Assembly: GCF_900083515.1 (NCBI RefSeq)
Contig: NZ_LT671858.1
Location: 720,001 to 752,000, forward strand
Direction of reading: 5' to 3'
Source of the DNA: Cuniculiplasma divulgatum
Lineage (GTDB): Archaea > Thermoplasmatota > Thermoplasmata > Thermoplasmatales > Thermoplasmataceae
Length of the DNA stretch: 32,000 nt
A program made the translations under genes and the position numbers. The notes under the pieces are model-generated. The model had not been told where the DNA came from and searched no databases. It saw only the letters and a list, made by a program, of their open reading frames with translations. This document shows, piece after piece, positions 9,920-30,331 of this stretch. Each line of letters starts with the position of its first letter. Position 1 is the first letter of the stretch.

Positions 9920-10729
9920 ATGATGGATTTAGTTTCCTCCTATTATGCAAAGGCTGATAGAATTCTTGTGCCAATGGCAAAAGGGGAAAGTTCTAGAAGA
10001 GCTTTTGAGTTTGCCAGCGACTTTGCAAAGGTCTTTGGTTCAGAAATAACAGCACTTACAATAAAGGACGAATCCAAGGAAGTTACATGGAGTGACAAGG
10101 TTGCTGTAGTTATGCAGGCATACAAGGAATCAAGTCAAAAAGGACTAAAGGTTATTCCAAAGATCCAGAGCGCAAGAAATGTTAGGGAAGGTATAATTAG
10201 AGAAGCAAATTCGAAGAATTATGATCTTGTTCTGTTCAGTTCCAGATCAAGATCGGGGGTCTCAACTTCTCTATTTGGAGGTATAGGAGATTATCTAATC
10301 AAGCATTCAAAGAACACAACAGCATCTCTTTCTATTAAAAGGAGTACATATCCATACAGGAAAATTCTGGTACCAATGAGCGAGAGACTCAATACACGTA
10401 AATCAGTATACCTTGCTGCTATCATGGCAAAGGTTCTAAACGCTAAATTTTACCTCTGTGATATGAGATCGTTCGATAAAAAGAAAATTCATGGTTTTAA
10501 AACGCTGATGAACGCGGAGGTATGGAAGGAGCTTAAACTTGATTACGAAATTTCTGACATATACGGAAGCGATCTGAGAGATTCAGTTCTTCAAAGGATT
10601 TACTCCACATCTTCAGATTTTGTGGTACTTGGCGTAAGACCTGATAGTTATTCAAATGTAAGAATAAATTCAGATATTAAAAAAATAATAAAGGATGCAC
10701 CAATAGATTCAGTTTTAATTAAGAGATGA
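9920..10729 (+). CDS. Universal stress protein, tandem UspA domains
   Basis: Two ~130-aa repeats, each opening with ILVPM (RILVPMAKGESS..., KILVPMSERLN...). The first ends with a G-rich nucleotide-loop-like segment (SRSRSGVSTSLFGGIGDYLIKHS). Convergent with kdpC, overlapping it by 15 nt. Confidence 0.8.
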   Translation: MMDLVSSYYAKADRILVPMAKGESSRRAFEFASDFAKVFGSEITALTIKDESKEVTWSDKVAVVMQAYKESSQKGLKVIPKIQSARNVREGIIREANSKNYDLVLFSSRSRSGVSTSLFGGIGDYLIKHSKNTTASLSIKRSTYPYRKILVPMSERLNTRKSVYLAAIMAKVLNAKFYLCDMRSFDKKKIHGFKTLMNAEVWKELKLDYEISDIYGSDLRDSVLQRIYSTSSDFVVLGVRPDSYSNVRINSDIKKIIKDAPIDSVLIKR

Positions 10730-11371
10730 GCTTTGTAAGACATTATTATTCATAAGGAATATTATGATCTGTACATCAATGTACATTATGTTAACATAAT
10801 ATGAACCAAATATTGGGAAATTCTGCCTTTCAGTTGAATTGATTGTGTTGTTTAAGAAACTGCTCACGGGTTTTAATTTCAGGGTTACATTTACTGAACT
10901 TGCAAACGATACAATTGAATTTGCAACCCTCGGCTCTTCCAGTAATGCAGCTGATAGTGGGATATTAGGATCTAACCCAGAATCAGAATCCATTATTACT
11001 TCTCCTGGGATTTTAGAAACTGAAACGTTCTTGTTCATCTGCTCAAATTCCTGTAAATTTTTCTCCAACTGCAGTAGAGATGCATTTGTATTTGGTGAGC
11101 AGCAGAGAGCACCTGAGGATGATTGGTTAAAGTCTATGGCAGAAGGCCTGGGCTGGAAAAAGTATGATCTGTTAAAAGCCTGAGCAAGATAATAACTGCC
11201 GAAAACCTTTCCATTAATCTTTATTTGATTACCATTCCCGGTTCCTGGATCAACCTTTTCAGTTATTAGTGCAGTGGCTGTTGGGATCACCAGTCCGAGA
11301 AGTACAAATATGATCACTGCAATTACAAGAGACCCTCTAAATATCCTCAATATTTCTTTCCAGTTTACCAT
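10715..11371 (-). CDS. kdpC: Potassium-transporting ATPase subunit C
   Basis: N-terminal TM anchor, FFQPRPSA, and SGLDPNIPLSAALLEEPRVA (KdpC SGLDPxIS...RVA motif). Overlaps the kdpB 3' end by 7 nt. Confidence 0.85.
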   Translation of the reverse strand: MVNWKEILRIFRGSLVIAVIIFVLLGLVIPTATALITEKVDPGTGNGNQIKINGKVFGSYYLAQAFNRSYFFQPRPSAIDFNQSSSGALCCSPNTNASLLQLEKNLQEFEQMNKNVSVSKIPGEVIMDSDSGLDPNIPLSAALLEEPRVANSIVSFASSVNVTLKLKPVSSFLNNTINSTERQNFPIFGSYYVNIMYIDVQIIIFLMNNNVLQSSSLN

Positions 11372-13356
11372 AAAATACCCACCCCCAGAAGCAAATGATA
11401 GATCAGGCCGATGGCTATAAACGGCAGGACAACTCCCCCGAAACCGTAAATTGTGATATTTCTTTTTAAAAGCTCATCTACAGTTGAGGGCTTAAATCTT
11501 ACCCCTCTTATGGCCAGTGGAATTAAAAGTGGAATTATTATTGTATTGAAAATTAAAGCAGAGGTTATGGCAAGCAGAGGATCAGTAAATCCAAGTATGT
11601 TTATGAATGAAAGTACCGGAAAAGCATAAAAAATTGCTGGTATTATTACAAAATATTTTGATATATCATTTGCAATACTAAATGTTGTTAGTGAACCTCT
11701 CGTTATGAGAATCTGCTTTCCTAAGAATATTACATCCATCAATTTCGTTGGATCATTATCAAGATCTATCATGTTTGCAGCGTCCTTTGCGGCCTGTGTT
11801 CCATTATTCATAGCAAGTCCCACATCTGCCAGAGCAAGTGCCGGAGCATCATTTGTGCCATCTCCAACCATGGCCACCATTCTCTGCTGATTTTTTTCCG
11901 CTTCAACCTTCATGTATTTATCCTGAGGCTTACTATTTGCAACAAATTCATCGAGTCCCGCCTCTCTTGATATGTACTCTGCAGTAAGTTCGTTATCCCC
12001 AGTACACATAACGGTTTTGATATTCATCGTTTTCATGGTTTTAATTCTCTCATTTATCCATGGCTTTATGATATCATTGAATTCTATTGCTCCAATTACC
12101 TGGCTGTCCAGTACAAGTACCATTGCTGTCCCCCCTCTACTTGAAATTTCGGCACATATGGCATCTATGAAATTGTCCTTTTGTCCCAGTATATCCCATA
12201 TAGCATGGGGCGAACCTTTGTACAGCTTATGTCCCTCATAACTTATTCCACTGAACTTCGTTTCTGATGAGAAGGGAACGAATTCAGCATTATTTATCCT
12301 GTACTTTTCAAGTTCTCCATAACGTTCTGACACATATTTTACAAGGGAAATTCCCTCTCTCGTTTCATCTAAATATGAGCTCTGATAGCAGATCTTTGCC
12401 ATTTCTTCTTCTGATATTCCTTTATTCGGATATATCTTGGAGGCGTCACGTTCGCCCATTGTAATAGTACCGGTTTTATCGAGAATTATTGTATCAATAT
12501 CACCAGCATTTTCTACTGCTCTTCCACTTTTGGCTATGATATTGAACTGAGAGACCTTATTAATGGCTGCCACACCCAAAGCAGGGAGTAGTGCACCAAT
12601 AGTTGTTGGAATCAGTGTGATCAGAAGTACTACGAGAATGATCAGATTTACATGATCTGATAGAAAATCCCCAAGGGGAAATATTGATGATGTAACAACG
12701 ATGAATACCAGGGTTAGTCCAGCCAGTAATATTGAAAGTGCTATTTCGTTTGGAGTCTTCTTTCTAACAGATCCTTCGACCATTTCAATCATCTTGTCCA
12801 GAAATGTTTCTCCCGGGTCTGCCGTAATTCTTATCTTAATACTGTCATCAAGAAAGGTTGTTGAACCGGTTACACTGTCGCCATTTACCTTGAATACGGC
12901 CTTCGATTCACCTGTAATTGCGGATTCATTGAAATATCCTCTGCCTTCGGCTATCTCACCATCAGTTGGTACCATTTCATTCTTCCTGACCTCTACAATC
13001 ATGCCTTTCCTCAGTTCAGAAGAATCCACAATTTTCTCCGTTGTGCCATCTATTATTCTTCCGGTGGTTTCTTTCTTCATTTTTTTAAGTGTTGCCGTTA
13101 TATTTCTGCTCTTTCCCTCTGCAAGTGCTTCCCCAAGAGTTGAAAAGAATATGGTAAGAAATAAGAGTACAACGACTGAAATATAGAAAGGTACATACAG
13201 CCCACTCATCTCGAGGTGATATGCCTGATGGAAGACAATGAGATATAATGAAAAAAGGAGGGCTATTTCTGTTATGAACATCACAGGATTCTTATATAGC
13301 TTCCGGGGATCAAATTCCTTAAGAGCATTTATAACTGCTTCAGCGTAACTGTTCAT
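11365..13356 (-). CDS. kdpB: Potassium-transporting P-type ATPase subunit B
   Basis: N-terminal KNPVMFITE, phosphorylation site ILDKTGTIT, TGES-type actuator loop (ITGESKAV), MCTGDN and MVGDGTNDAPALA. Confidence 0.95.
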   Translation of the reverse strand: MNSYAEAVINALKEFDPRKLYKNPVMFITEIALLFSLYLIVFHQAYHLEMSGLYVPFYISVVVLLFLTIFFSTLGEALAEGKSRNITATLKKMKKETTGRIIDGTTEKIVDSSELRKGMIVEVRKNEMVPTDGEIAEGRGYFNESAITGESKAVFKVNGDSVTGSTTFLDDSIKIRITADPGETFLDKMIEMVEGSVRKKTPNEIALSILLAGLTLVFIVVTSSIFPLGDFLSDHVNLIILVVLLITLIPTTIGALLPALGVAAINKVSQFNIIAKSGRAVENAGDIDTIILDKTGTITMGERDASKIYPNKGISEEEMAKICYQSSYLDETREGISLVKYVSERYGELEKYRINNAEFVPFSSETKFSGISYEGHKLYKGSPHAIWDILGQKDNFIDAICAEISSRGGTAMVLVLDSQVIGAIEFNDIIKPWINERIKTMKTMNIKTVMCTGDNELTAEYISREAGLDEFVANSKPQDKYMKVEAEKNQQRMVAMVGDGTNDAPALALADVGLAMNNGTQAAKDAANMIDLDNDPTKLMDVIFLGKQILITRGSLTTFSIANDISKYFVIIPAIFYAFPVLSFINILGFTDPLLAITSALIFNTIIIPLLIPLAIRGVRFKPSTVDELLKRNITIYGFGGVVLPFIAIGLIYHLLLGVGILW

Positions 13357-15122
13357 AAAACACCTCTAATAATAAGGGAAAACGTTCTTCCCCAGCTCAA
13401 TAGTGGTCCAACTGCAAGAATTGGGAAGAAAGAAAGTAATCCTAAAAGCAACATGGTGAAAAACAGCATCATACCAAACCAGAATGACCCAATATCAAAC
13501 GTCCTCCCATACAGCACTTTCGGTTTTTTAGATGCAAAGGATTGAGCTATTACAAGCTGAAAAGCCATAATTGGGAATCTCCCCATCAGCATAATTATAC
13601 CATCTATTATGTTAAAAAATGCAGTATTGGTAGCAAATCCACCTACCTCGGATCCATTATTTGAAGCAGCTGAGGCAAATTCATAAAGAAGCTGCGTTAT
13701 TTGATCCGGTCTTGTGTTTACAAAGGAACTCATCAATATGGGTGACAAAAGCAGTACTATCCCCAATGGTACAATAATAATTAATGGATGGGTGATAAGA
13801 CTGTAAGTTGAATACTTCATTTCCTTCGCACTAACTTTGAGACTCATAATTTCTGGAAGTTTTCCTACCATTAGGGAAACTATGAACACTGTAAAAATAA
13901 CGTACGAAAAAATATTCAAGATGCCCGTCCCAACTCCTCCAAGGGGATCGTTGAGGAGAAGAGGAAACAATATACCCAGAATACCAGCAGGTGTATAATC
14001 AATAAGAGCAGAATTAGCAGCACCCGTAGATGTAAGCGTAGCTCCTGTCGAAAATATGGAACTCTGGGAAATTCCAATGGCAGTTTCCTTTCCTATGAAG
14101 TTGCCTCCATAGTTAAATCCGAGATTGGCCATTGCTGGAATTCCTGATATTTCTCCAAAGAAAGTCAGTAAGGCACTGAATATGAACAATGCAACTATAA
14201 CTCCATATATTACTCTTCCAAATTTTCTATTATTAAGTGCCTGACCCAGAGCAAATATTGAGCCAATTGGGATGATCGTAAATGAGACAACTTCAATTAG
14301 GTTGGAGATCCAATCTGGATTTTCAAATGGATACCCTGCATTGGCCCCGTAAAAACCTCCTCCGTTTGTTCCAATGTTTTTAACACCTTCTAAAGAGGCT
14401 ACAGGTCCAATCGGTATATTCACCGTCATCTTTCCGAAAAATGGGTGGATTATGATGCTTGAATAGGTGGTGTCTGGAACTCCAACTATTATTAGTAATA
14501 CGGTGGCAAGGAGTGAGAGTGGTAGGATTAAATCAAATATGGCGACTAAAAAGTCATGAAAGAAATTTCCAAGTTTTTTATCGTCATTCATGATTCCCCT
14601 AACGAAGGCCATTGAAGCTGCAAATCCTGTACCTGCAGAAAGAAACATCAGGCCAATTATAACCACAGTTAAATCCAAATATGTGAGTGTGGTTGGTGAT
14701 GAGTAATGCTGCAGATTTGTATTCGTAAGAAAGCTTATAATCGTATTAAAGGTAAGACTTGGGGACATGACATCCTGACCAGGGGCTTTAAAAAAGTACC
14801 CCTGAAAAATTAAAAAAAGAAATGAAATAGTTCCTGCAACAAAATTAAAAATTATAAGTGATATAAAGTAACCCTTAAAGGAATATGTCTTGTTTCTATC
14901 TACACCTGCTACCTTTTCAATGAAACCTATAATCGGATCAGTATACTTCCGCAGTTTTGTATTTTCTCCTGTATAGAGTTTCTTGATATATGGTGCAATC
15001 ATATAACCAAAGAAGCTTATGATTATGAGGTAGAGGGCAATAATTATAACACCCGAAACTATTCTATTATTAACAAAAAATGCCGACCAGAAATTTCCAG
15101 TCGCTGTAATGCCAGTACTCAT
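13353..15122 (-). CDS. kdpA: Potassium-transporting ATPase subunit A (channel-like)
   Basis: 589-aa polytopic protein with repeated selectivity-filter-like TNGGGF and NNGSEVGG segments. ATGA overlaps with kdpB (13353-13356) and with kdpF. Confidence 0.93.
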   Translation of the reverse strand: MSTGITATGNFWSAFFVNNRIVSGVIIIALYLIIISFFGYMIAPYIKKLYTGENTKLRKYTDPIIGFIEKVAGVDRNKTYSFKGYFISLIIFNFVAGTISFLFLIFQGYFFKAPGQDVMSPSLTFNTIISFLTNTNLQHYSSPTTLTYLDLTVVIIGLMFLSAGTGFAASMAFVRGIMNDDKKLGNFFHDFLVAIFDLILPLSLLATVLLIIVGVPDTTYSSIIIHPFFGKMTVNIPIGPVASLEGVKNIGTNGGGFYGANAGYPFENPDWISNLIEVVSFTIIPIGSIFALGQALNNRKFGRVIYGVIVALFIFSALLTFFGEISGIPAMANLGFNYGGNFIGKETAIGISQSSIFSTGATLTSTGAANSALIDYTPAGILGILFPLLLNDPLGGVGTGILNIFSYVIFTVFIVSLMVGKLPEIMSLKVSAKEMKYSTYSLITHPLIIIVPLGIVLLLSPILMSSFVNTRPDQITQLLYEFASAASNNGSEVGGFATNTAFFNIIDGIIMLMGRFPIMAFQLVIAQSFASKKPKVLYGRTFDIGSFWFGMMLFFTMLLLGLLSFFPILAVGPLLSWGRTFSLIIRGVL

Positions 15123-22299: not shown

Positions 22300-24996
22300 T
22301 CAACTGTTTTCCATTTCCATCTTTAGCATCTTCTGAAATTCAATGAAAACATTAGATTCGGTGTTCCTTACACTAAGGATGTCTCGAATCATTGAATCGA
22401 CCGACAATTTATAATTAACAAATTTTTCAACGGTCTTCTTTACATCTTCTAATGCTCTCATCTCAATGGTTGGATCGATTCTATCCCATCTTTTTTCTAT
22501 CCTGTTTATATTCACCTTGGTATCTCTCAGACTCAAATATGCAATTTCTGACTCTATCTGTTCCATATCTATTTTATTTTCAAGAGAAAATAGCTTTGCG
22601 TAAAGTGATAGCTGGTTCACATAGTCCCTGTTAACTTTTTTGGAAGTTTTAAAGTCCACAATAACTGTTTTCTCTGTATTTCCTTCAATGTACTTATACA
22701 ATCCATCGATCCTGCCCTCAACAGTAATATTTGTCATAATATCCGGGAAAACGTTACTAACCTTTTGCTTGAATTTCATTTCAGATCCTAACCATTTACC
22801 CTTCTGTATTTCCCTTACGTATTTATCATAGGAAATGAAATTGCTCCACGTTCTGGTAAGCTTTTCGTCATTCATAATTGGTGGTGTCTCATGACTTTTT
22901 ATATAATTTTCTATGTAGCTGTGAATATCACTTCCAAAGGTTAAGGCTGAAGATTTAGTCTGTATTCCTAGCACATATGACTCAACAAATTTATCCAGTT
23001 CCTTGACCCTCTCGAGCATGGTAAAACTCAGGTTATTCAATTTTTCCATTTTCTTTTTCAAATAATCCCTTATCCATGGTTTGAAATTAAGCTTCAATTT
23101 TTCTCTATCGGAAATATCCTTCATACTTACAAATTCATTATTTACTATCTTAGTTGTAAAGTCAATTTTTTTGCATGGTTCTAAATCATATCTCGTTGAA
23201 GATTTTTTCTCAGTTATAATATCAAGAGAATTCTTTGTTCTAGTAAGTGCAACAAAATCTATCCTGTTTTCCTCCTTTATTCTTTCATCCCTACTGTAAC
23301 TCAGATTATTGCTTTTCAGTATGGAATCTACGATAAGATCAATGGCACTTGTATTCTTCTTCTCTGTGTATTTTGGAATGTATATAACGTGATCAAATTC
23401 AAGCCCCTTTGCCTTATGTACGGTAATTATACAGACCTTCTCTGAGATCTCATCAACACTATCCCTTGAATTCTCCTGAAGTATATACTTCTGGAGACTG
23501 GCGAGGGAGTATTCTTCTCCTGTTCCGAATCTATCAAGGAACATGGGAAGAGAGTCAAATACATCCTTGGCAGCCTCAAAGGCTGATTCGCCCAGAGCAA
23601 TAGAATTTGGAATTATATAATCATTGAATAGCTGAAGAAGTTGATTCTTATGATTTCCATATTTTTCCCTTATATCTATCAACTCTCTGGGAAGAACCTT
23701 CTTCAGATCGTTTTCAAATCTCATTCTCTCTGCTATCTGAATACCATCGTATAATGGTATCCTGGAGTAAATTGAATAGATCATTCCAATTATGCTGTCA
23801 GAGGTTCCGTAAATCCCACCGATGAATTTTGAAATTTCCTCTCTCCACAGCTTCTCACCTTTCGTACCAGAAATCTTTTGATGTGAAATATTCTTTAATG
23901 TGAGAGAATCTGAAAGATCATTTGCCTGTTCATTAGTTCTAACAATAATACCTACGGATTCATCATTATTCTGCTTATTCAGAATTTCTGTTACTGCATC
24001 TATCAATTCACCCTTATCTTTCAGCCTGATAAGTGTAACCACCCCATCCTTTTCATTCATGCTCCTGAAATGGTCCAGCTCAGGTGACAGTTCTTCTGGT
24101 TCGTGAGTTCTGTAGAAGTTAATGCAATATTCAACAACATTTTTTGGCAATCTTCTGGTTCCATCTATGACCCTTTTTTCAAAATCTTTCCCGGACATCA
24201 TATCTCTTAAAGCACGAATGTTACCACCCTGGAAACCGAAAATTGCCTGTTTCATGTCTCCAACAGCATACACATTCTCCCCAACCTGCTTTACCAGTTC
24301 ATATTCTATTTCACTCATATCCTGAACTTCGTCAACAAAAACATACTGATATTTATTGAAGTGGGCCTTGGAATAATTTACAGCTCTTAAGAGAATATCG
24401 TTATAATCCATCTGAGATAAATTCTTTGAAGATTCGTAGTCACGGAATATATCTAGAAATCCCTCACATAAGATTTCCATTTCTTCCAGAGTGTAACCAT
24501 TCACTCCATTACCATTGTTATACTCCATCCTTACATTTTTCTTAAGTTCCTCTATATGGACTTTATCTGGTAAAATAGCAAAACTTTTGAGGAACTTTAT
24601 CGCATTCACAATTTGACCTACGTTTACTATTGCCGGATAATCTTTCGATAAAACTTCTCCATCATAATTCATTATCTGTCTTGTTTCAAGAGATTTTAAT
24701 ATCTGATATCTGAGGAATCTTTCAGGTATCAAGTCCCCACCTTCCATTCTATGATTTATTATACTTTGAGATAGGCTATGGAATGTATGAATGTCCGGCA
24801 CCTTATACTTTGTATCCTTCATCTTAAGTATAATCCTTCTTTCCATCTCATCTCTTGCCTTATTTGTGAACGTGAGGCATAAAATATTATCTGAATCTAC
24901 TCCTTCTTGAAGAAGTTTTGAAACCTGATTTGAAAGGTCTTCAGTCTTACCAGACCCAGGATTTGCAGAAACAAGTATCCGTGATTTGCTCATCAT
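22300..24996 (-). CDS. UvrD/PcrA-family SF1 helicase fused to a C-terminal RecB-type PD-(D/E)XK nuclease
   Basis: - Helicase motif I ANPGSGKT (nt 24943-24966, checked by hand).
- Motif Ia LTFTNKARDEM.
- Motif II FVDEVQDMS (DEVQD at nt 24319-24333, checked).
- Motif III VGDMKQAIFGFQGG.
- Motif IV RRLPKN.
- Motifs V/VI ITVHKAKGLEFDHV and FVALTRTKNSL.
- Nuclease (residues ~655-870, nt ~22387-23034): GSDIHSYIE, EGRIDGLY, IVDFKTSK (DFK at nt 22648-22656, checked) and QLSLY (QxxxY).
- No Cas4-like Cys cluster. Confidence 0.9.
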   Translation of the reverse strand: MMSKSRILVSANPGSGKTEDLSNQVSKLLQEGVDSDNILCLTFTNKARDEMERRIILKMKDTKYKVPDIHTFHSLSQSIINHRMEGGDLIPERFLRYQILKSLETRQIMNYDGEVLSKDYPAIVNVGQIVNAIKFLKSFAILPDKVHIEELKKNVRMEYNNGNGVNGYTLEEMEILCEGFLDIFRDYESSKNLSQMDYNDILLRAVNYSKAHFNKYQYVFVDEVQDMSEIEYELVKQVGENVYAVGDMKQAIFGFQGGNIRALRDMMSGKDFEKRVIDGTRRLPKNVVEYCINFYRTHEPEELSPELDHFRSMNEKDGVVTLIRLKDKGELIDAVTEILNKQNNDESVGIIVRTNEQANDLSDSLTLKNISHQKISGTKGEKLWREEISKFIGGIYGTSDSIIGMIYSIYSRIPLYDGIQIAERMRFENDLKKVLPRELIDIREKYGNHKNQLLQLFNDYIIPNSIALGESAFEAAKDVFDSLPMFLDRFGTGEEYSLASLQKYILQENSRDSVDEISEKVCIITVHKAKGLEFDHVIYIPKYTEKKNTSAIDLIVDSILKSNNLSYSRDERIKEENRIDFVALTRTKNSLDIITEKKSSTRYDLEPCKKIDFTTKIVNNEFVSMKDISDREKLKLNFKPWIRDYLKKKMEKLNNLSFTMLERVKELDKFVESYVLGIQTKSSALTFGSDIHSYIENYIKSHETPPIMNDEKLTRTWSNFISYDKYVREIQKGKWLGSEMKFKQKVSNVFPDIMTNITVEGRIDGLYKYIEGNTEKTVIVDFKTSKKVNRDYVNQLSLYAKLFSLENKIDMEQIESEIAYLSLRDTKVNINRIEKRWDRIDPTIEMRALEDVKKTVEKFVNYKLSVDSMIRDILSVRNTESNVFIEFQKMLKMEMENS

Positions 24997-25383: not shown

Positions 25384-26769
25384 ATGGTCGAATCGAGGAA
25401 AGGAATTAGAGAAAGGATTCACAACATAAGGATCAAGAAATATGAATCCTATGAACCATCAATAGAAATTCGTGAAGTGGAATATAACAAGGATGACGGT
25501 ACCCTTAATGTCTTTGTAACTCCGAAGCATAGAAAATATATTAAGAGCATGGAGGTCACAATAAGGGATTATAAACTTCGGGATAGAGTAGTAAAACTCA
25601 AAAAAATTAGAGACGAATTCAGATTATCATACAGACTGGACAATGAGAAAAAGTATAGTTTCTCCTTTTATTCGATTGCCAAAGATGGTAAATTCACTCG
25701 AATGGACATTGATATGGAAAAACTAAAAGAAAATATGAGAATAATAGGTATAGAAGAAAGTCATGCTCCTGAAGAAAATCAATCCATAAATAATGTAGTT
25801 AAGGAAAAGACCCTATCGTCTATGTCTACGGGATCTATATTCACACCTGTGAAAAGATCCTGGCCAACCTCATCACAGTATGCTCAGTCTTTGCAGAACC
25901 CAAACTTTTCTTTATCTAAAAATTATGATGAACTTAAAGGAATAACATTTGAGAAAAACCAGAATGTGAAGTATTCAAGTATTATTCAGGGAGCAGGTAA
26001 TTTTGGTGTGGTCTTCAAATACAGGAGTAATGCTGGAGACTTTGCACTGAAATGCTTCACAAGAGGAAGTCCAAATATTCAACTCAGATATTATGAAGTT
26101 TCCAAAAAAATAAATGATTCACAAATTTCATTCCTTCTTGATTTTAAGTTCTACCAGGATGCATTAAGGGTGACACAACGACCGAAGGAGTATTTTCCAG
26201 CGGTGACTATGAAGTGGATCGAAGGAAAAACTCTTCATACTTTTATAAAAGAGAATTTAGCGAACCATGAAACATTTAAGGCAATCGGAAACAATCTCGT
26301 AAACTGTATCACGGAAATGCAGAACAATTTCATAGCACACGGTGACCTCTCGTGTGATAATATATTGATAGATACAGGTAATAATGTAAAACTTATTGAC
26401 TATGACGGAATGTTTGTTCCAGCCCTTAAAAAACTTGGTTCAGAAGAGCTTGGACATGAATCATTCCAGCATCCAAGGAGGGGCAAATACTACGGAGAAA
26501 GACTTGATAATTTCTCTATACTCATAATATATACCTCATTGATCGCACTTTCAAAAAATCCGAAGTTATGGAAATATAATGGGGACGACCCCGATAAGCT
26601 TCTTTTTGATATTACTGATTTCGAATCTCCAGATCGCTCAAAAGCGTTAAGGGACGTTCAATCTGAAAGTCCAAAATTAAAGAAGCTGGTAAAACTAATA
26701 AATGAATACCTGGGGCAGCCTCCAGACTGGTCAGGTTTTGATCCTTCAACTCTTCTCAGAATGAGATAA
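25384..26769 (+). CDS. Hanks-type Ser/Thr protein kinase with an uncharacterised ~190-aa N-terminal region
   Basis: G-loop QGAGNFGVV (nt 25987-26013), VAIK-type Lys in FALKCF (K at 26050-26052), catalytic loop HGDLSCDN (26338-26361) and DFG-equivalent IDYDG (26398-26409). All were checked against the DNA. I recognise nothing in residues 1-190. Confidence 0.85.
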   Translation: MVESRKGIRERIHNIRIKKYESYEPSIEIREVEYNKDDGTLNVFVTPKHRKYIKSMEVTIRDYKLRDRVVKLKKIRDEFRLSYRLDNEKKYSFSFYSIAKDGKFTRMDIDMEKLKENMRIIGIEESHAPEENQSINNVVKEKTLSSMSTGSIFTPVKRSWPTSSQYAQSLQNPNFSLSKNYDELKGITFEKNQNVKYSSIIQGAGNFGVVFKYRSNAGDFALKCFTRGSPNIQLRYYEVSKKINDSQISFLLDFKFYQDALRVTQRPKEYFPAVTMKWIEGKTLHTFIKENLANHETFKAIGNNLVNCITEMQNNFIAHGDLSCDNILIDTGNNVKLIDYDGMFVPALKKLGSEELGHESFQHPRRGKYYGERLDNFSILIIYTSLIALSKNPKLWKYNGDDPDKLLFDITDFESPDRSKALRDVQSESPKLKKLVKLINEYLGQPPDWSGFDPSTLLRMR

Positions 26770-27472
26770 GTATGGCTGAAAGGTCATCATTTTTTATGGT
26801 ATTTTCGTTTCTCATATCATCAAAAAAAGTTCTGTCATTATAATGATCCCATAATAGTCCGAAACTATCTTCGCCTGCCTCCATTATAAATTTTGACATG
26901 GCATCAGTCGCGAGTATTATCTCATTGCCTTTAACAATCTTAAATTTCTCCTGCTTAATATTTAATTTCTGTTCAAAGGGTTTATTGTTTAGGGGGAAAC
27001 CATATCCAGACCAGACGAGACTTGGATGAATACCAAATTGATCTGGGGAATTAAGTGGAAAACTTTTCATCTTGCCCTCGTCAAAGATGAAAATACATGA
27101 ATCTCCTATAGCATGAACAATTAAGCTTTCCATAGAACCAAATTCTGTACTAATACCCAAAAAAGTTGAATAGGCTCCTCGAACAGCCTTGTTTTTAACA
27201 TTCCATTTGAGTCCTTTCCAGTTTATGCTCTCATACCACATCTTTCTGGAATCTCGAATAAATTGCCTTATATCGTTTTTTATTTTCTCATCCCCATTGT
27301 TATTAACGAACTCGTTTGTCAGGGCAAAAGCCCACTGTCCTGAAAATATAGAATCACTTGCACCATCAGCTATGGCGAACTTTAGTTTTTCAAGATTTAT
27401 ACTCAGGGAATCCTCTGTCTCCTCAGGATTGTTTCCAGATTTAGAAAAATTAAAGGAGTGAACCTCCATCAT
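26756..27472 (-). CDS. PP2C-family (PP2C_2-like) protein phosphatase
   Basis: Metal-binding motifs in PP2C order: EETEDS, FAIADGASDS, HAIGDSCIFIF, ILATDAMSKF, and C-terminal NDDLSAILISF. Its ATG overlaps the vWA stop (ATGA at 27469-27472). Confidence 0.8.
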   Translation of the reverse strand: MMEVHSFNFSKSGNNPEETEDSLSINLEKLKFAIADGASDSIFSGQWAFALTNEFVNNNGDEKIKNDIRQFIRDSRKMWYESINWKGLKWNVKNKAVRGAYSTFLGISTEFGSMESLIVHAIGDSCIFIFDEGKMKSFPLNSPDQFGIHPSLVWSGYGFPLNNKPFEQKLNIKQEKFKIVKGNEIILATDAMSKFIMEAGEDSFGLLWDHYNDRTFFDDMRNENTIKNDDLSAILISF

Positions 27473-28290
27473 TCTACCTTGTTATATACCACTCTTGTTC
27501 CAATGTCCAGAAGCTTTATCAATTCTTCAAGATTTGCGTTAAAAACATATGCTTTGGAACCACTTTCAACGTTTGAGAATTCCTCCCTTGCTATAGCAAC
27601 CATTGGCTCTGGAACAACGCTTGTCATTGAAAACATTGTTCTTGCGTTCTTATCCTCAGGTATTTCTGTTTCATCCTTTGGAAAACTTATTGGTTTTTCA
27701 TCCTTTTCGGAGAGATGGCAGTTCCACAATAGAACCTTCCCATCAGAAGTTTCCATGTTCATTATCTCTTCAGCAATGTCAGATGGATTCCCATCCGTTG
27801 CCCCACCATCACTAATATTTATGATAACCGGGGGAAAAGAATTCCCATGCTCTCCAATCCACTTCTCTGTCCATTCCTTAGCAATCGTTAGAGCTTTTAC
27901 CATGGGAGTATCGTATGATGCGACAGGTTCAAACCAAACTGGAAACTCCGTTTCAATTGTTTCACCATCTATTTCCTCAGAATGTTTCTCCATTTTCAAA
28001 ATATGACTCTCAAGTTCTGAAATTGATACAGGACTATCTCCAATCAAGCCCCGTGCATCTCCACTCTTGAATCCGTAACCAATTACTCCAACATCAAAAT
28101 AAGGTCTTATTCCATCTGACTTTGTACATCTACTTATAACCTCATTCAACTGCCTGTTAATTGCATCTGAGGCCTCTTGGGCTTTTGATCTCTGTCCTCC
28201 TGCAATCTTTCTACTCATAGATCTTGACTGATCTAGGAGAAAAATGAAGAGCCCAGGATTTCTTCTGCTTATTTCTGCGTCATATGCCAT
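27469..28290 (-). CDS. von Willebrand factor A (vWA) domain protein with intact MIDAS, TerY-like
   Basis: MIDAS DxSxS in FIFLLDQSRSMS (DQSRS at nt 28219-28233, checked), later Thr (SYDTPM) and Asp (INISDGGATDG). About 270 aa, with no TM or signal peptide. Confidence 0.85.
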   Translation of the reverse strand: MAYDAEISRRNPGLFIFLLDQSRSMSRKIAGGQRSKAQEASDAINRQLNEVISRCTKSDGIRPYFDVGVIGYGFKSGDARGLIGDSPVSISELESHILKMEKHSEEIDGETIETEFPVWFEPVASYDTPMVKALTIAKEWTEKWIGEHGNSFPPVIINISDGGATDGNPSDIAEEIMNMETSDGKVLLWNCHLSEKDEKPISFPKDETEIPEDKNARTMFSMTSVVPEPMVAIAREEFSNVESGSKAYVFNANLEELIKLLDIGTRVVYNKVE

Positions 28291-28323
28291 TTACATTCAT
28301 CCCTTCATTAAATATAAAATTTA

Positions 28324-28656
28324 TCAATGCTTCTTTTCAAATAATCCAAGAAACACTGCTACTAGAATTACTATATAACCTATAATGAAAATTCCGGGAT
28401 ATGCTATTATTCCTGCAACGGAAATTACAGCCATAGTTGTTAGACCAATTTCTTTCTTTCTTCTGCTAAGTTCGACGCCTATTATTCCAATAACACTGAA
28501 GAGTAAGTTATCAACTACAGCAGCCCCTGCACTCACCTTTCCAAAGAATGAAATATAGCTTGTAATGTCATGCAGCACAAACAGAATCAATGCTAGAACT
28601 ATGTTTATGAGAGCTCCTATTATCCCTATTTTATAATAAAGCTTAAATGATGCCAT
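28324..28656 (-). CDS. Small polytopic membrane protein (hypothetical, 110 aa)
   Basis: Three to four hydrophobic helices (IGIIGALINIVLALILFVL, LLFSVIGIIGV, AVISVAGIIAYPGIFIIGYIVILVAVFLGL). 33-nt gaps to both neighbours on the same strand. Confidence 0.6.
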   Translation of the reverse strand: MASFKLYYKIGIIGALINIVLALILFVLHDITSYISFFGKVSAGAAVVDNLLFSVIGIIGVELSRRKKEIGLTTMAVISVAGIIAYPGIFIIGYIVILVAVFLGLFEKKH

Positions 28657-28689
28657 GGTAGATTGATAATTTTAAGCTATTAAAATATA

Positions 28690-29781
28690 TCATTTTTTTA
28701 ATTCATACTTCTTTCCTCTCCATTCAATATGGGTTGATCTAACTCCAGTAATCATATTGATGAAATAGATAAATGGTAACACTATTGACGCTATTGTAAC
28801 CATCATTATGTTCTGCTTCTCTCTAGAAACGTTAATGGCAATTGCCATTCCCCATGGAATGTATCCGAGAAGGAATAAGTTCCAGACAAAAATGGATAGT
28901 GGGATTAAGGCAATTACATATAATATTACTATACCATAAATCCCAATTCCTGCATAGAATGCGTTCTTACTGTGAGATATGCTTATGGCAATTTGCCTAT
29001 TGGACCATTCCATGAAGGTTTTTCTATCCTCTCTAGTGTATACAACTGGTCTAGTATTATGAGCATAAGCAATCTTGAGATTTCTTTCCTTGCAAATGGA
29101 TGTAATTGTGGAATCATCTGAAATGGAATTAGCAAACTTTTCAAAATTATCTGGAAAAATTAAATCATTCCTGAAGGCGACCGATCCTCCCCAAACAAAT
29201 CTTGTCAATCTGAACTCCATCATGTTTATTCCAAGGTATCCCCATGTTTTTTTAATATAGTCCCATATATTTCCTCTGTCAGCAGGATCATAATAGGGAT
29301 AAGTTGTGCTTGCACCTATATTTTTGTCCGCAAGAGGACCTAAAAGACTTTGCAGCCAGTTGGGTTTAACAAGTGTATCTGAATCCAAAATAGCAAAGTA
29401 ATCACTTTCCTGATATTTTTTGAGTGCAGTTGCTATAGCACCAACTTTTCCACTCCCGCTGTGACCGCCATCTGAAACTAGAATTTCCATGTTATGTTTT
29501 TTCAGTATCTGAACCGCAGGATCATCTAAATGATCAACAACAGCAACAATATTATACTGTTCGACTGTTTGATGTTTTATTGCATCTAAATTTTTTTCAA
29601 AATTAAGATCGACGCCCTTGCACGGAAATATAACGGTAACCTTTTTTAAAGCTATATTCTTCTGACTGGAACTTTGTCTTTTCCACCACACAACAAGATA
29701 TATCCTTAGGGATAGAAATACTATAAGTACCAATATGATGAATGCCCAGAGTATTTTTATAATTTCAATGTCTTGAATCAT
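28690..29781 (-). CDS. Membrane-bound family 2 glycosyltransferase, GT21-like (ceramide-glucosyltransferase/HpnI-like), probable lipid glycosyltransferase
   Basis: N-terminal TM helix, then a GT-A core: VTVIFPCKG, GKVGAI, DxD in FAILDSDTLV, WGGSVAFR, SDDSTIT. C-terminal TM helices and a terminal IEWRGKKYEL, as in the GT21 subgroup by my recollection. Confidence 0.85.
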   Translation of the reverse strand: MIQDIEIIKILWAFIILVLIVFLSLRIYLVVWWKRQSSSQKNIALKKVTVIFPCKGVDLNFEKNLDAIKHQTVEQYNIVAVVDHLDDPAVQILKKHNMEILVSDGGHSGSGKVGAIATALKKYQESDYFAILDSDTLVKPNWLQSLLGPLADKNIGASTTYPYYDPADRGNIWDYIKKTWGYLGINMMEFRLTRFVWGGSVAFRNDLIFPDNFEKFANSISDDSTITSICKERNLKIAYAHNTRPVVYTREDRKTFMEWSNRQIAISISHSKNAFYAGIGIYGIVILYVIALIPLSIFVWNLFLLGYIPWGMAIAINVSREKQNIMMVTIASIVLPFIYFINMITGVRSTHIEWRGKKYELKK

Positions 29782-30331
29782 CTATCTCACTAATGGGAAC
29801 AGTTCTGCTTCCTCTAGTCCCTCTCATAGGTTCAGATTCCTTCCCGATCCTTTTTCCCCTCAATATATTAAATATATCAGAAAGAGAGAGAACAGAAAAG
29901 ATTATTCCCGTGATCAGGGAAATGAAAAGAAAAATCTCTAGGAATATAATATAATAAGAGGTATGATAGACAACAACTGAGCTGGCAAAATTCATCAACA
30001 TCGAGATAAGACCTATCATTATGGTAAAAACAAATAATCTGTTGATCTGACCAAATATTGGTTGCTTAAGGCTTTCTGGATGAAAGATCGGGATCATTGA
30101 GATCATCACAGTGTAAGCAGCCATCATAAGACCCATAATTGTCCCATAAAAAGTTAGGATCGACGAACTGGAATAGAAAGAAGCAATCTTCGAGGTTAAA
30201 AGAGTATCTGTTGGAATATATATCTTTCCTATATTGGTTGTCAGAAAAAAAGTAATAATAAATGACAGAATCACTACATTTCTCAACTTATAAAAGGAAT
30301 CCAATCTACCCTTAAGCCTGACCTGAGCCAT
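29765..30331 (-). CDS. Polytopic membrane protein (hypothetical, 188 aa)
   Basis: Four to five hydrophobic helices and a charged C-terminal tail (RGKRIGKESEPMRGTRGSR). Its 3' end overlaps the glycosyltransferase start by 17 nt. Confidence 0.6.
   Translation of the reverse strand: MAQVRLKGRLDSFYKLRNVVILSFIITFFLTTNIGKIYIPTDTLLTSKIASFYSSSSILTFYGTIMGLMMAAYTVMISMIPIFHPESLKQPIFGQINRLFVFTIMIGLISMLMNFASSVVVYHTSYYIIFLEIFLFISLITGIIFSVLSLSDIFNILRGKRIGKESEPMRGTRGSRTVPISEIDDSRH

What the first reader, a model, noticed from the sequence alone, without database searches (positions are those of the whole stretch)
25384..28290. vWA + PP2C phosphatase + Ser/Thr kinase triad (TerY-P-like) in an archaeal genome, with the kinase inverted and no other ter genes
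**Seen in the sequence**
- Three adjacent genes carry exactly the three domains of the TerY-P triad: a vWA protein with a complete MIDAS (DQSRS...T...SDGGATDG), a PP2C-type phosphatase, and a Hanks-type kinase.
- The kinase has all catalytic residues (G-loop, Lys, HGD..N, DYDG), so it is probably active and non-RD.
- vWA and PP2C are translationally coupled (ATGA at 27469-27472).
- The kinase lies on the opposite strand, and its 3' end overlaps the PP2C 3' end by 14 nt (26756-26769).

**Established knowledge, from memory**
- The vWA(TerY)-PP2C-kinase triad was defined by comparative genomics of tellurite-resistance/Ter loci (Anantharaman, Iyer and Aravind, 2012).
- A bacterial TerY-P triad was reported to give phage protection in the 2020 Gao et al. 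defence-system screen.
- In those cases the three genes are, as far as I recall, co-directional and bacterial.

**What is unusual here**
- The host context is archaeal (rnp4, elp3 and others).
- The kinase orientation is convergent.
- There are no TerD/TerZ/TerB-type neighbours in the 32 kb.
- The kinase has a large unassigned N-terminal region.
- A helicase-nuclease and a membrane glycosyltransferase cluster are immediate neighbours.
Basis: partly seen in the sequence, partly recalled or inferred. Interest (0 to 1): 0.72.

Follow-up and report, generated by a model that had tools for sequence, protein, structure and literature searches.

The report
Archaeal TerY-P kinase-phosphatase-vWA triad variant
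Three adjacent genes in the acid-loving archaeon Cuniculiplasma divulgatum are a real, apparently active copy of the bacterial "TerY-P" kinase/phosphatase/metal-binding-protein module, in a rearranged form shared by a whole archaeal lineage, which makes it a modest new variant rather than a new kind of system.

Summary
The window (Cuniculiplasma divulgatum) carries vWA/TerY (27469-28290, -), PP2C (26756-27472, -) and a Hanks-type kinase (25384-26769, +). It has the ATGA stop/start overlap and the 14-nt convergent 3' overlap. All three proteins match the three consecutive PADLOC models named TerY, PP2C and STK_OB (E = 6e-76, 2e-25, 2e-61). MIDAS, PP2C and kinase catalytic residues are conserved.

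The "inverted kinase" is not a local oddity. In all 22 loci of a monophyletic Thermoplasmata (+1 Bathyarchaeia) clade that hold a kinase, it is convergent. It usually overlaps PP2C by 8-17 nt. In that clade the kinase domain sits at the C-terminus behind a variable N-terminal module. In 48 of 49 bacterial loci the genes are co-directional, with the kinase domain N-terminal.

The window's N-terminal module is a lineage-specific Ig/FN3-like beta-sandwich, not an OB fold. The helicase-nuclease and glycosyltransferase neighbours are linked only within Cuniculiplasmataceae. Lack of ter genes is normal for stand-alone TerY-P.

TerY is the most conserved gene locally and is abundant in a published proteome.

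Verdict: a new variant of a known kind. Whether it acts in antiviral defence or in general signalling is unresolved.

The parts
27469..28290 (-). TerY-type vWA protein (273 aa) with a complete MIDAS: D20-Q-S22-R-S24, T128, D161-G162. No hydrophobic 19-aa segment and no signal peptide seen, so presumably cytosolic. Identical to UniProt A0A1N5U2D6 / CSP5_0782.
   Evidence: - PADLOC TerY PDLC02224, E = 6.2e-76, residues 1-267 on profile 1-273/277.
- MIDAS invariant.
- 44-45% identical to bacterial TerY and 47-76% within the archaeal clade, always the best-conserved gene of the locus.
- Exact accession match.
- Detected with 31 peptides, 0.372 fmol% (PMC7285479 supplement).
26756..27472 (-). PP2C/PPM-family Ser/Thr phosphatase (238 aa). 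Translationally coupled to TerY.
   Evidence: - PADLOC PP2C PDLC02222, E = 2.3e-25, full length.
- Pfam PP2C_2 1.3e-3, below the gathering score.
- Metal-binding motifs ED(20-21), DG(36-37), GD(123-124), TD(189-190) and NDD(228-230) are at least 85% conserved in 81 sequences.
25384..26769 (+). Hanks-type, non-RD (HGD) Ser/Thr kinase (461 aa), convergent to the TerY-PP2C pair.
   Evidence: - PADLOC STK_OB PDLC02223, E = 1.8e-61, residues 159-437 on profile 2-274/562.
- Pfam Pkinase 3e-11.
- AF2 mean pLDDT 91.6.
- Foldseek finds eukaryote-like kinases (PKC-beta, PAK1, PknB) at E about 1e-9 to 1e-11.
- Invariant G205, H319, D321, N326, D339, D341, R366, D375.
25384..25746 (+). Kinase N-terminal module (residues 1-121): a basic helix (about 2-19) followed by an eight-strand Ig/FN3-like beta-sandwich (about 27-121). 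It is lineage-specific.
   Evidence: - AF2 pLDDT 94-97 across the domain.
- Foldseek against PDB gives only generic beta-sandwich hits: SgrA 5fce at E = 3e-4, FN3 domains, CBM31/CBM56. There is no OB-fold match.
- phmmer against 1.84 billion representatives finds 4 hits: two same-lineage homologues, one weak 120-aa match of unplaced origin, and one repeat protein that looks spurious.
- The domain is conserved in about 22 close kinase homologues.
25747..25857 (+). Disordered Ser/Thr-rich linker (residues about 122-158) between the beta-sandwich and the kinase core.
   Evidence: pLDDT is below 50 for residues 126-148. Its length and sequence vary among homologues.
25858..26769 (+). Kinase catalytic core (residues 159-461). 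It starts with the family-wide WPxSSxYAQxLQN lead-in and ends at the stop codon, with no C-terminal OB-fold or zinc-ribbon extension.
   Evidence: phmmer and PADLOC alignments to all relatives start at about residue 150-160. In this clade only 0-16 residues follow the aligned kinase region, against 120-1700 in bacteria.
27469..27472 (-). ATGA stop/start overlap coupling TerY and PP2C.
   Evidence: Read in the sequence. TerY-PP2C spacing is -4 to +16 nt in most archaeal loci.
26756..26769 (.). 14-nt overlap of the convergent 3' ends of PP2C and the kinase.
   Evidence: Read in the sequence. An 8-17 nt overlap is found in 19 of 22 loci of the clade.
28310..28319 (-). TATA-like box (TTTTATATTT) 20-29 nt upstream of the TerY ATG. 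This suggests the TerY-PP2C pair has its own promoter and a leaderless mRNA. Inference only.
   Evidence: Sequence read. No experimental TSS data were available.

Best explanation
**What it is.** The three genes are the Thermoplasmata-lineage version of the TerY-P phosphorylation triad. This is a self-contained module of a MIDAS-bearing vWA protein (TerY), a PP2C phosphatase and a non-RD Hanks-type kinase.

**Shown here.**
- All three are orthologous to the bacterial TerY-P components.
- All keep their catalytic or metal-binding residues.
- They are inherited as one unit.
- In this archaeal clade the unit is re-wired. TerY-PP2C form a translationally coupled pair. The kinase is transcribed convergently, with overlapping 3' ends.
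- The clade's kinase has its catalytic domain at the C-terminus, behind a lineage-variable N-terminal module. In Cuniculiplasma that module is a soluble Ig-like beta-sandwich. Elsewhere it is a transmembrane anchor or a probable PH/GRAM-like domain.

**Inferred mechanism.**
- The variable N-terminal module positions or activates the kinase in response to a signal.
- The kinase phosphorylates the abundant TerY protein (and possibly other targets), and PP2C resets it.
- Phosphorylation toggles MIDAS-dependent binding of TerY to a ligand or partner.

**Likely role.** Homologous stand-alone bacterial triads protect against T7-like phages, so the most likely role is an antiviral or stress-triggered switch. 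No effector domain is evident. A domesticated general signalling role is nearly as likely.
For: **Homology**
- PADLOC TerY, PP2C and STK_OB hits at 6e-76, 2e-25 and 2e-61.

**Active sites**
- Conserved in all three proteins.

**Linkage and architecture**
- 22/22 loci of the archaeal clade that hold a kinase are TerY> PP2C> <STK.
- 48/49 bacterial loci with a kinase are co-directional.

**Domain order**
- In the archaeal clade the kinase domain is C-terminal, with 90-551 aa N-terminal extensions.
- In bacteria and Hadarchaeum it is N-terminal, with 120-1700 aa C-terminal extensions.

**N-terminal modules in the clade**
- Beta-sandwich.
- 2-5 hydrophobic segments in Thermoplasma, L017-L023 and L024.
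- Weak PH/GRAM-like hints in L011-L016.

**Co-evolution**
- The clade is monophyletic in NJ trees of all three proteins.
- Only the triad is conserved across 23 archaeal loci; the flanks differ.

**Expression**
- TerY (CSP5_0782 = A0A1N5U2D6, exact match) is at 0.372 fmol% with 31 peptides.
- The neighbouring helicase-nuclease is at 0.028% (PMC7285479 supplement). An abundant TerY fits a stoichiometric substrate or scaffold served by catalytic enzymes.

**Defence precedent**
- TerY-P protects against T7-like phages (Gao et al. 2020, as summarised in PMC7699616, and PMC11090510).
Against: - No substrate, phosphosite or interaction was tested. TerY as the kinase substrate is inference.
- No effector domain is present, so how a switch would stop a virus is unknown, even for the bacterial systems.

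Features that are atypical for defence genes:
- The neighbourhood is housekeeping (Kdp, Elp3, ABC transporter, ThiF, ADH, pyrD, hemA). There are no integrases, transposases or other defence models.
- The chromosomal position is stable across Cuniculiplasmataceae.
- TerY is under stronger purifying selection than its neighbours: 76% identity against about 50%.
- TerY is highly and constitutively abundant.
- There are no relatives in IMG/VR viral contigs or phage genomes, and only 2 in 72,556 plasmids.

Other limits:
- The kinase lacks the OB-fold half of the PADLOC STK_OB profile.
- The kinase and PP2C were not found in the held, truncated proteome tables.
Confidence: 0.6

Rival explanations
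1. The triad is a domesticated housekeeping signalling module, not immunity. In Thermoplasmata, which lack two-component systems, it would be a constitutive Hanks-kinase/PP2C pathway. It would sense membrane or cytosolic cues, such as metal or envelope stress in acid mine drainage, and regulate physiology through the abundant MIDAS protein TerY.
For: - Housekeeping neighbourhoods in several sub-clades.
- Stable position and vertical-looking divergence within Cuniculiplasmataceae.
- TerY is the most conserved local gene.
- TerY is at 0.372 fmol%, with a modest cold-shock increase (FC 1.22, q = 0.0137) in uninfected culture.
- Many clade members have membrane-anchored kinases, like receptor kinases.
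- No two-component systems were identified in the Thermoplasmatales genomes available to the review (PMC5007285).
- The Sulfolobus ArnB (vWA)/ArnC-D kinase/PP2A network is an archaeal precedent for a vWA protein as a phospho-regulated regulator.
Against: - The closest characterised relatives are anti-phage systems.
- Flanks differ between sub-clades, so the module moves or is rearranged as a unit.
- No named Picrophilus, Ferroplasma, Acidiplasma or T. volcanium homologue appeared in either protein search. This hints at a patchy distribution, though the evidence is weak.
- A variable sensor module on a constant core is also typical of immune sensors.
Confidence: 0.33
2. The triad is the regulatory arm of a larger DNA-processing or restriction-like system with the adjacent UvrD-family helicase fused to a PD-(D/E)XK (Cas4/RecB-like) nuclease (22300-24996). 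This would be analogous to TerY-P embedded in CoCoNuT/McrBC-type or other DNA-processing clusters.
For: - The helicase-nuclease lies 387 bp from the kinase, divergently oriented.
- The adjacency is kept in L003-L006 and L008.
- TerY-P is reported to associate with helicases and nucleases (Anantharaman 2012 as cited in PMC4978471) and with CoCoNuT types II and III-A (PMC11090510).
- Both proteins are expressed.
Against: - The helicase-nuclease is absent next to the triad in the other 18 archaeal loci, including T. acidophilum and Thermogymnomonas.
- No other helicase or nuclease replaces it there. The neighbours are peptidases, PCNA, MsrA, Nre and MoCF genes.
- The adjacency has the same phylogenetic depth as the unrelated ADH, SIS and GT21 synteny.
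Confidence: 0.05
3. The arrangement is a chance adjacency, or the proteins are decayed pseudo-enzymes with no joint function.
For: Pfam alone gives only weak or no hits for PP2C and vWA. NCBIfam has nothing above its cut-offs.
Against: - The linkage is conserved in about 80 species-level genomes across two domains.
- Catalytic residues are invariant.
- The reading frames are intact.
- TerY protein is detected.
Confidence: 0.02

Closest known systems
Stand-alone TerY-P anti-phage system (Gao et al. 2020; PADLOC models TerY/PP2C/STK_OB; DefenseFinder 'Gao_TerY')
   Same: - The same three orthologous proteins.
- TerY then PP2C in the same order and tightly coupled.
- A non-RD HGD...N...DYDG kinase core.
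- No ter genes required and no recognisable effector.
   Different: - The kinase gene is convergent with an overlapping 3' end.
- The kinase domain is C-terminal, not N-terminal.
- There is no OB-fold; an N-terminal Ig-like beta-sandwich takes the place of the accessory module.
- The host is archaeal.
- Anti-viral activity is untested.
TerY-P triads embedded in Type II/III-A CoCoNuT (McrBC-related) systems (PMC11090510)
   Same: A vWA + PP2C + STK triad acting as an accessory phospho-switch. The module attached to the kinase is variable.
   Different: - There the kinase carries a C-terminal zinc ribbon.
- There the triad sits inside cnuB/C/H/E operons.
- No McrB/McrC, HEPN or coiled-coil partners were seen among the window ORFs scanned.
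Ter (tellurite-resistance) clusters with TerY (Anantharaman, Iyer & Aravind 2012; from memory and as cited in PMC4978471 and PMC11090510)
   Same: A TerY-type vWA protein. The proposed role is a metal-sensing, phosphorylation-dependent switch.
   Different: No TerD/TerZ/TerB/TerC/TerA domain was found in any ORF of at least 110 aa in the 32 kb window.
Sulfolobus acidocaldarius archaellum regulatory network: ArnA (FHA), ArnB (vWA), ArnC/ArnD kinases, PP2A (PMC5007285)
   Same: An archaeal system in which a vWA protein is phosphorylated by Hanks-type kinases and reset by a Ser/Thr phosphatase.
   Different: - There is no FHA partner here.
- The phosphatase is PPM/PP2C, not PPP.
- The genes form one compact module.
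- Sequence relatedness of TerY to ArnB was not tested. The TerY profile finds no PDB chain at E <= 0.1.
Pseudomonas aeruginosa T6SS threonine-phosphorylation pathway: PpkA (kinase-vWA fusion), PppA (PP2C), Fha1 (PMC1262709 for the PpkA architecture; the rest from memory)
   Same: A functional trio of a Hanks kinase, a PP2C and a vWA domain used as a post-translational on/off switch.
   Different: - In PpkA the vWA domain is fused to the kinase and is periplasmic.
- That pathway needs an FHA protein and T6SS genes. None are here.

Membership tests
TerY-P triad (Anantharaman 2012 / Gao 2020 / PADLOC TerY-P) | TerY-type vWA protein with an intact MIDAS | tested here: met
   PDLC02224 E = 6.2e-76, full length. 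DxSxS, T and DG are invariant.
TerY-P triad (Anantharaman 2012 / Gao 2020 / PADLOC TerY-P) | Adjacent PP2C-family phosphatase of the TerY-P clade | tested here: met
   PDLC02222 E = 2.3e-25, full length. The acidic metal-binding motifs are conserved. An ATGA overlap couples it to TerY.
TerY-P triad (Anantharaman 2012 / Gao 2020 / PADLOC TerY-P) | Adjacent Hanks-type Ser/Thr kinase of the TerY-P clade | tested here: met
   PDLC02223 E = 1.8e-61 over the kinase half. The catalytic residues are invariant. It co-evolves with TerY and PP2C.
TerY-P triad (Anantharaman 2012 / Gao 2020 / PADLOC TerY-P) | Kinase fused at its C-terminus to an OB-fold (Gao type) or a zinc ribbon (CoCoNuT type) | tested here: not met
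   The protein ends with the kinase core, and only profile positions 2-274/562 match. The extra domain is an N-terminal Ig-like beta-sandwich. Most bacterial relatives sampled also match only about positions 1-300 of that profile, so this feature is not universal in the family.
TerY-P triad (Anantharaman 2012 / Gao 2020 / PADLOC TerY-P) | Co-directional three-gene operon | tested here: not met
   The kinase is convergent, here and in 22/22 loci of the clade. 48/49 bacterial loci are co-directional. I could not check whether the PADLOC or DefenseFinder rules require the same strand.
TerY-P triad (Anantharaman 2012 / Gao 2020 / PADLOC TerY-P) | Confers protection against viruses | not testable with these tools
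   This needs genetics and infection assays in a Thermoplasmatales host or a heterologous host.
Ter tellurite-resistance cluster | Presence of TerD/TerZ/TerE, TerB, TerC or TerA genes near TerY | tested here: not met
   Pfam scans of the ORFs of at least 110 aa in the window (overlapping shadow ORFs left out) found no Ter-family domain.
CoCoNuT type II / III-A | McrB-like GTPase, McrC, and a CnuH helicase / CnuE HEPN protein next to TerY-P | tested here: not met
   The neighbours are a UvrD-PD-(D/E)XK helicase-nuclease, a GT2/GT21 glycosyltransferase, ADH, ThiF and SIS. No McrBC or HEPN hits were found.
Arn-type archaeal vWA/FHA phospho-network | FHA-domain partner (ArnA) encoded with the vWA protein | tested here: not met
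   No FHA hit in the Pfam scans of the flanking ORFs. The rest of the genome was not searched.

The most novel reading that the evidence does not exclude
In Thermoplasmata the TerY-P triad may no longer be (only) an immune system. It may have been re-wired into the main receptor-type Hanks-kinase signalling pathway of organisms that lack two-component systems.
- The kinase would be a sensor with interchangeable N-terminal modules: membrane-spanning, PH-like or Ig-like.
- It would be expressed from its own convergent, 3'-overlapping transcription unit.
- It would control a very abundant, strongly conserved MIDAS protein (TerY, about 0.37 mol% of the proteome) that acts as a phospho-regulated scaffold or metal-dependent binder.
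Probability: 0.3. Interest if true: 0.65.

Novelty: new variant of a known kind. Interest (0 to 1): 0.45.

Why it matters
- TerY-P is a validated but mechanistically unexplained defence module. It has no obvious effector, and nobody knows what the vWA protein binds or what the kinase senses.
- The archaeal clade shows which parts are constant: the TerY-PP2C coupling, the kinase core and the MIDAS site.
- It also shows which parts are free to vary: the sensor module, its side of the kinase, and gene orientation.
- It supplies a minimal kinase without an OB fold or zinc ribbon, from cultivable thermo- or acid-tolerant hosts (C. divulgatum, T. acidophilum). These suit biochemistry and structural work.
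- The proteome data add an unexpected quantitative fact. TerY is about as abundant as ribosomal proteins, which points to TerY as a stoichiometric substrate or scaffold.
- The locus also adds a candidate to the sparse list of non-CRISPR, non-RM defence or signalling modules in Thermoplasmatota.

Tried and rejected
**Searches that found nothing useful**
- NCBIfam: nothing above cut-off for any of the three proteins.
- PDB sequence search with the TerY profile: 0 hits at E <= 0.1.
- PDB sequence search with the PH-like N-terminal profile: 0 hits at E <= 10.
- TerY relatives in IMG/VR viral contigs: none.
- TerY relatives in phage genomes: none.
- TerY relatives on plasmids: 2 cyanobacterial megaplasmids only.
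- Rfam on the whole window: no match.
- Repeats around the locus: only short chance-level matches.

**Ideas tested and rejected**
- OB-fold hypothesis for the kinase N-terminus (a permuted STK_OB). Foldseek finds only Ig/FN3/CBM-like sandwiches.
- A link to the biochemically characterised T. volcanium PPM phosphatase (Dahche 2009, cited in PMC5007285). A search with the T. acidophilum triad PP2C returned only 'Thermoplasma sp.' relatives and no T. volcanium protein. The link is unsupported, and presence of the triad in T. volcanium is unresolved.
- Helicase-nuclease or GT21 cluster as system components. Rejected on synteny depth.
- ChlD/Mg-chelatase annotation of CSP5_0782 (COG1240 in the proteome table). 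This is a generic vWA label and no AAA+ partner is adjacent.

**Literature limits**
- The primary papers (Anantharaman 2012, PMC4104200; Gao 2020, PMC7985843) are not held. Their content is cited second-hand or from memory.
- The 2026 archaeal immunity survey (PMC12988326) does not mention TerY in its text or held supplements.
- The kinase and PP2C (presumed CSP5_0780 and CSP5_0781) were not found in the truncated proteome tables.

Full report
**1. What is in the sequence**

The ORF list confirms three genes:
- a 461-aa ORF at 25384-26769 (+)
- a 238-aa ORF at 26756-27472 (-)
- a 273-aa ORF at 27469-28290 (-)

On the minus strand the vWA stop and the PP2C start share ATGA at 27469-27472. The kinase stop (TAA, 26767-26769) and the PP2C stop (26756-26758) give a 14-nt convergent overlap.

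The kinase is 100% identical to a Cuniculiplasma divulgatum protein. The vWA protein is exactly UniProt A0A1N5U2D6 / SIM54914.1 of C. divulgatum. A near-identical locus lies on a 1.93-Mb Thermoplasmatales chromosome, CP133596.

**2. Domain identity**

| Protein | PADLOC model and E-value | Pfam |
|---|---|---|
| vWA | TerY PDLC02224, 6.2e-76, full length | no VWA hit |
| PP2C | PP2C PDLC02222, 2.3e-25, full length | PP2C_2 1.3e-3, below gathering score |
| kinase | STK_OB PDLC02223, 1.8e-61, profile 2-274 of 562 only | Pkinase 3e-11, above gathering score |

- The three PADLOC models have consecutive accessions.
- Many homologues of the vWA protein carry PF00092/PF13519.
- NCBIfam gives nothing above its cut-offs.

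Active sites are intact and conserved:
- MIDAS D20-x-S22-x-S24, T128 and D161-G162.
- PP2C ED 20-21, DG 36-37, GD 123-124, TD 189-190 and NDD 228-230.
- Kinase G205, K223 (K or R), H319-G320-D321, N326, D339-Y-D341-G, E355, R366 and D375.

The kinase is a non-RD (HGD) eukaryote-like kinase. Its AF2 model is confident (pLDDT 91.6) and matches PKC, PAK1, PknB and similar kinases in Foldseek.

**3. The triad elsewhere**

A scan of one genome per GTDB species returned 80 loci. I located the three genes in each with phmmer.

The convergent clade holds 23 non-redundant loci:
- 21 are labelled Thermoplasmata or Thermoplasmatota. They include T. acidophilum, a Thermoplasma sp., Thermogymnomonas, Cuniculiplasma and Sysuiplasmataceae.
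- One is labelled Bathyarchaeia.
- One short contig is labelled only 'bacterium'.
- All 22 that contain a kinase have TerY> PP2C> <kinase.
- 19 of those 22 have an 8-17 nt 3' overlap.

The 57 bacterial loci break down as follows:
- 45 are TerY>PP2C>kinase.
- 3 are kinase>TerY>PP2C.
- 1 is divergent.
- 8 have no kinase in the sequence held.

The single Hadarchaeum locus is of the bacterial type.

NJ trees of each of the three proteins recover the convergent group as one clade. Hadarchaeum is nested among bacteria. These trees have no bootstrap support, and the stem branches are short (0.018-0.036).

The inverted kinase is therefore a fixed feature of an archaeal lineage. The three genes have evolved together.

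**4. A second, linked difference: domain order**

- In bacteria and Hadarchaeum the kinase core starts at residue about 2. It is followed by a C-terminal extension of 120-1700 aa.
- In the archaeal clade the core is at the extreme C-terminus, with 0-16 residues after it. It is preceded by an N-terminal extension of 90-551 aa.

The N-terminal extensions are not homologous between sub-clades:
- Thermoplasma has two hydrophobic segments.
- L017-L023 have four or five hydrophobic segments followed by a Pro-rich linker.
- L024 (Bathyarchaeia) has a large N-terminal region with several hydrophobic segments.
- L011-L016 have a soluble domain with weak, sub-threshold PH/GRAM-like Pfam hints.
- Cuniculiplasma, Thermogymnomonas and relatives have a soluble beta-rich domain.

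For the window protein:
- AF2 predicts a basic helix plus an eight-strand beta-sandwich (residues about 20-121, pLDDT 94-97).
- A disordered Ser/Thr-rich linker follows (126-148), then the kinase.
- Foldseek gives only generic Ig/FN3/CBM-like matches (best E = 3e-4). There is no OB fold.
- phmmer against 1.84 billion representative proteins finds the domain essentially only in this lineage.

Most bacterial relatives also match only the kinase half of the STK_OB profile. The general rule for the family is a constant kinase core plus a variable accessory module. The archaeal clade has moved that module to the other end of the protein.

**5. Context**

- Only the triad itself is conserved across the 23 archaeal loci.
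- The UvrD-type helicase fused to a PD-(D/E)XK nuclease (22300-24996) accompanies the triad only in L003-L006 and L008, that is, in Cuniculiplasmataceae.
- The TM188-GT2/GT21-TM110 cluster (28324-30331) has the same restricted distribution.
- Elsewhere the neighbours are MoCF biosynthesis genes, radical-SAM enzymes, Nre, peptidases, PCNA, MsrA and formamidase.
- The rest of the window is housekeeping: hemA, pyrD, KdpABC, Usp, Elp3, an ABC transporter, PadR, ThiF, ADH and SIS.
- The window has no Ter-family domains, integrases or other convincing defence models.
- TerY relatives are absent from IMG/VR and phage genomes and nearly absent from plasmids.

**6. Selection and expression**

Identity of window proteins to their orthologues:

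| Comparison | TerY | PP2C | Kinase | Helicase-nuclease | GT21 | ADH |
|---|---|---|---|---|---|---|
| Another Cuniculiplasmataceae genome (L005) | 76% | 48% | 49% | 49% | 50% | 67% |
| Bacteria (L033, L040) | 44-45% | 27-28% | 33-34% | - | - | - |

TerY is thus the most conserved gene of the locus.

In the published cold-shock proteome of C. divulgatum S5 (PMC7285479 supplements):
- CSP5_0782 (A0A1N5U2D6) was identified with 31 peptides, 20 of them unique.
- It makes up 0.372 fmol% of the cold-shock sample. It is listed next to HSP20 (0.370) and ribosomal protein L6 (0.364).
- It rose slightly on cold shock (FC 1.22, q = 0.0137).
- The helicase-nuclease CSP5_0779 is at 0.028%.
- The presumed kinase and PP2C tags, CSP5_0780 and CSP5_0781, do not occur in the held tables. 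Those tables are truncated, so this absence is weak evidence.

**7. Interpretation**

- Membership of the TerY-P family is well supported at the level of the three orthologous proteins and their linkage.
- Two features fail. The OB-fold or zinc-ribbon fusion is absent, though it is not universal even in bacteria. The co-directional operon is replaced by a convergent layout.
- I therefore call this a new variant of a known kind.

The most likely working model:
- The N-terminal module localises or gates a constitutively competent non-RD kinase.
- The kinase phosphorylates the abundant TerY, and PP2C (co-translated with TerY) resets it.
- Phosphorylation changes MIDAS-dependent binding.
- The steps from 'kinase phosphorylates TerY' onward are inference.

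On biological role:
- Bacterial stand-alone triads protect against T7-like phages (PMC7699616; PMC11090510). That argues for defence.
- The housekeeping context, strong purifying selection on TerY, its constitutive abundance and the receptor-like kinases argue for a domesticated signalling role.
- No two-component systems were identified in the Thermoplasmatales genomes available to the review in PMC5007285. That also favours signalling.
- I put defence or stress switch slightly ahead of pure housekeeping signalling.
- Coupling to the neighbouring helicase-nuclease is unlikely.

**8. Limits**

- No T. volcanium, Picrophilus, Ferroplasma or Acidiplasma homologue appeared by name in two protein searches. 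Only about a quarter of proteins carry names.
- The two primary TerY-P papers were not available.
- No complex prediction, promoter mapping or experiment was possible.

Noticed in passing
window 22300-24996 (-): An 898-aa SF1 UvrD-type helicase fused to a C-terminal PD-(D/E)XK (Cas4/RecB-like) nuclease, divergent from the kinase across a 387-bp AT-rich spacer. It is annotated CSP5_0779 'UvrD helicase/Cas4 nuclease' and detected at 0.028 fmol% in the proteome. It is syntenic with the triad only in Cuniculiplasmataceae. Its PADLOC hits (GajB, RTasHel) look like generic UvrD matches.
   Followed up: partly
window 28324-30331 (-): A tight three-gene membrane cluster: a 188-aa multi-TM protein, a 363-aa GT2/GT21 (ceramide-glucosyltransferase-like) glycosyltransferase whose start overlaps it by 17 nt, and a 110-aa TM protein. 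It is conserved as a block in L003-L006 and L008, in an organism without a cell wall. The function was not examined.
   Followed up: partly
window 9920-15122: A KdpABC potassium-transporting ATPase operon (kdpA 13353-15122, kdpB 11365-13356, kdpC 10715-11371) next to a double-Usp-type protein (9920-10729). No KdpD/E sensor is visible among the ORFs scanned.
   Followed up: no
L007 11555-12628 (Thermogymnomonas acidicola JCM 13583): The triad kinase is split into two ORFs (82 and 252 aa) in this draft assembly. An intact 424-aa T. acidicola kinase (P0141) exists in another assembly. This is a frameshift or an assembly error.
   Followed up: no
L043 7236-13730 (Bacillota MAG): Two complete TerY-PP2C-kinase triads in tandem on the same strand, a duplicated system.
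   Followed up: no
L066 9998-16982 (Gemmatales); L044 994-6089; L064 1968-5444: Unusual bacterial architectures. In L066, TerY is followed directly by a 1999-aa kinase ORF with no separate PP2C detected. In L044 the TerY ORF is 721 aa. In L064 the kinase is 1158 aa. ORF starts were taken mechanically, so the lengths may be overestimates.
   Followed up: no
L079, L058, L059, L072, L073, L082 (Obscuribacterales / Cyanobacteria-related MAGs): In L079 the kinase is upstream and divergent (<STK TerY> PP2C>). It matches the STK_OB profile in two stretches (E = 8e-118). The sister loci show no kinase downstream of PP2C, which suggests a second, independent re-orientation of the kinase in this bacterial group.
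   Followed up: partly
L012 106-2198; also L015, L016, L017, L018, L021, L025: An archaeal Nre (Nre_N + Nre_C) gene plus a radical-SAM gene recur within a few genes of the triad in 7 Thermoplasmata loci, at varying positions and orientations. This is probably lineage synteny rather than a functional link.
   Followed up: partly
L010 (contig DAICSO010000076.1, labelled 'bacterium isolate clean2775'): This 3.9-kb contig carries a typical Thermoplasmata-type convergent triad (57% TerY identity). The contig is probably mis-binned or the bin mislabelled.
   Followed up: no
window kinase residues 232-246 (nt about 26077-26121): In the predicted alpha-C helix there is no family-conserved glutamate. 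Position 238 is E here but A, K or R in most relatives. R235-Y236 are conserved instead (88% and 82%). The usual Lys-Glu salt bridge may be replaced in this kinase family. This was not examined structurally.
   Followed up: no
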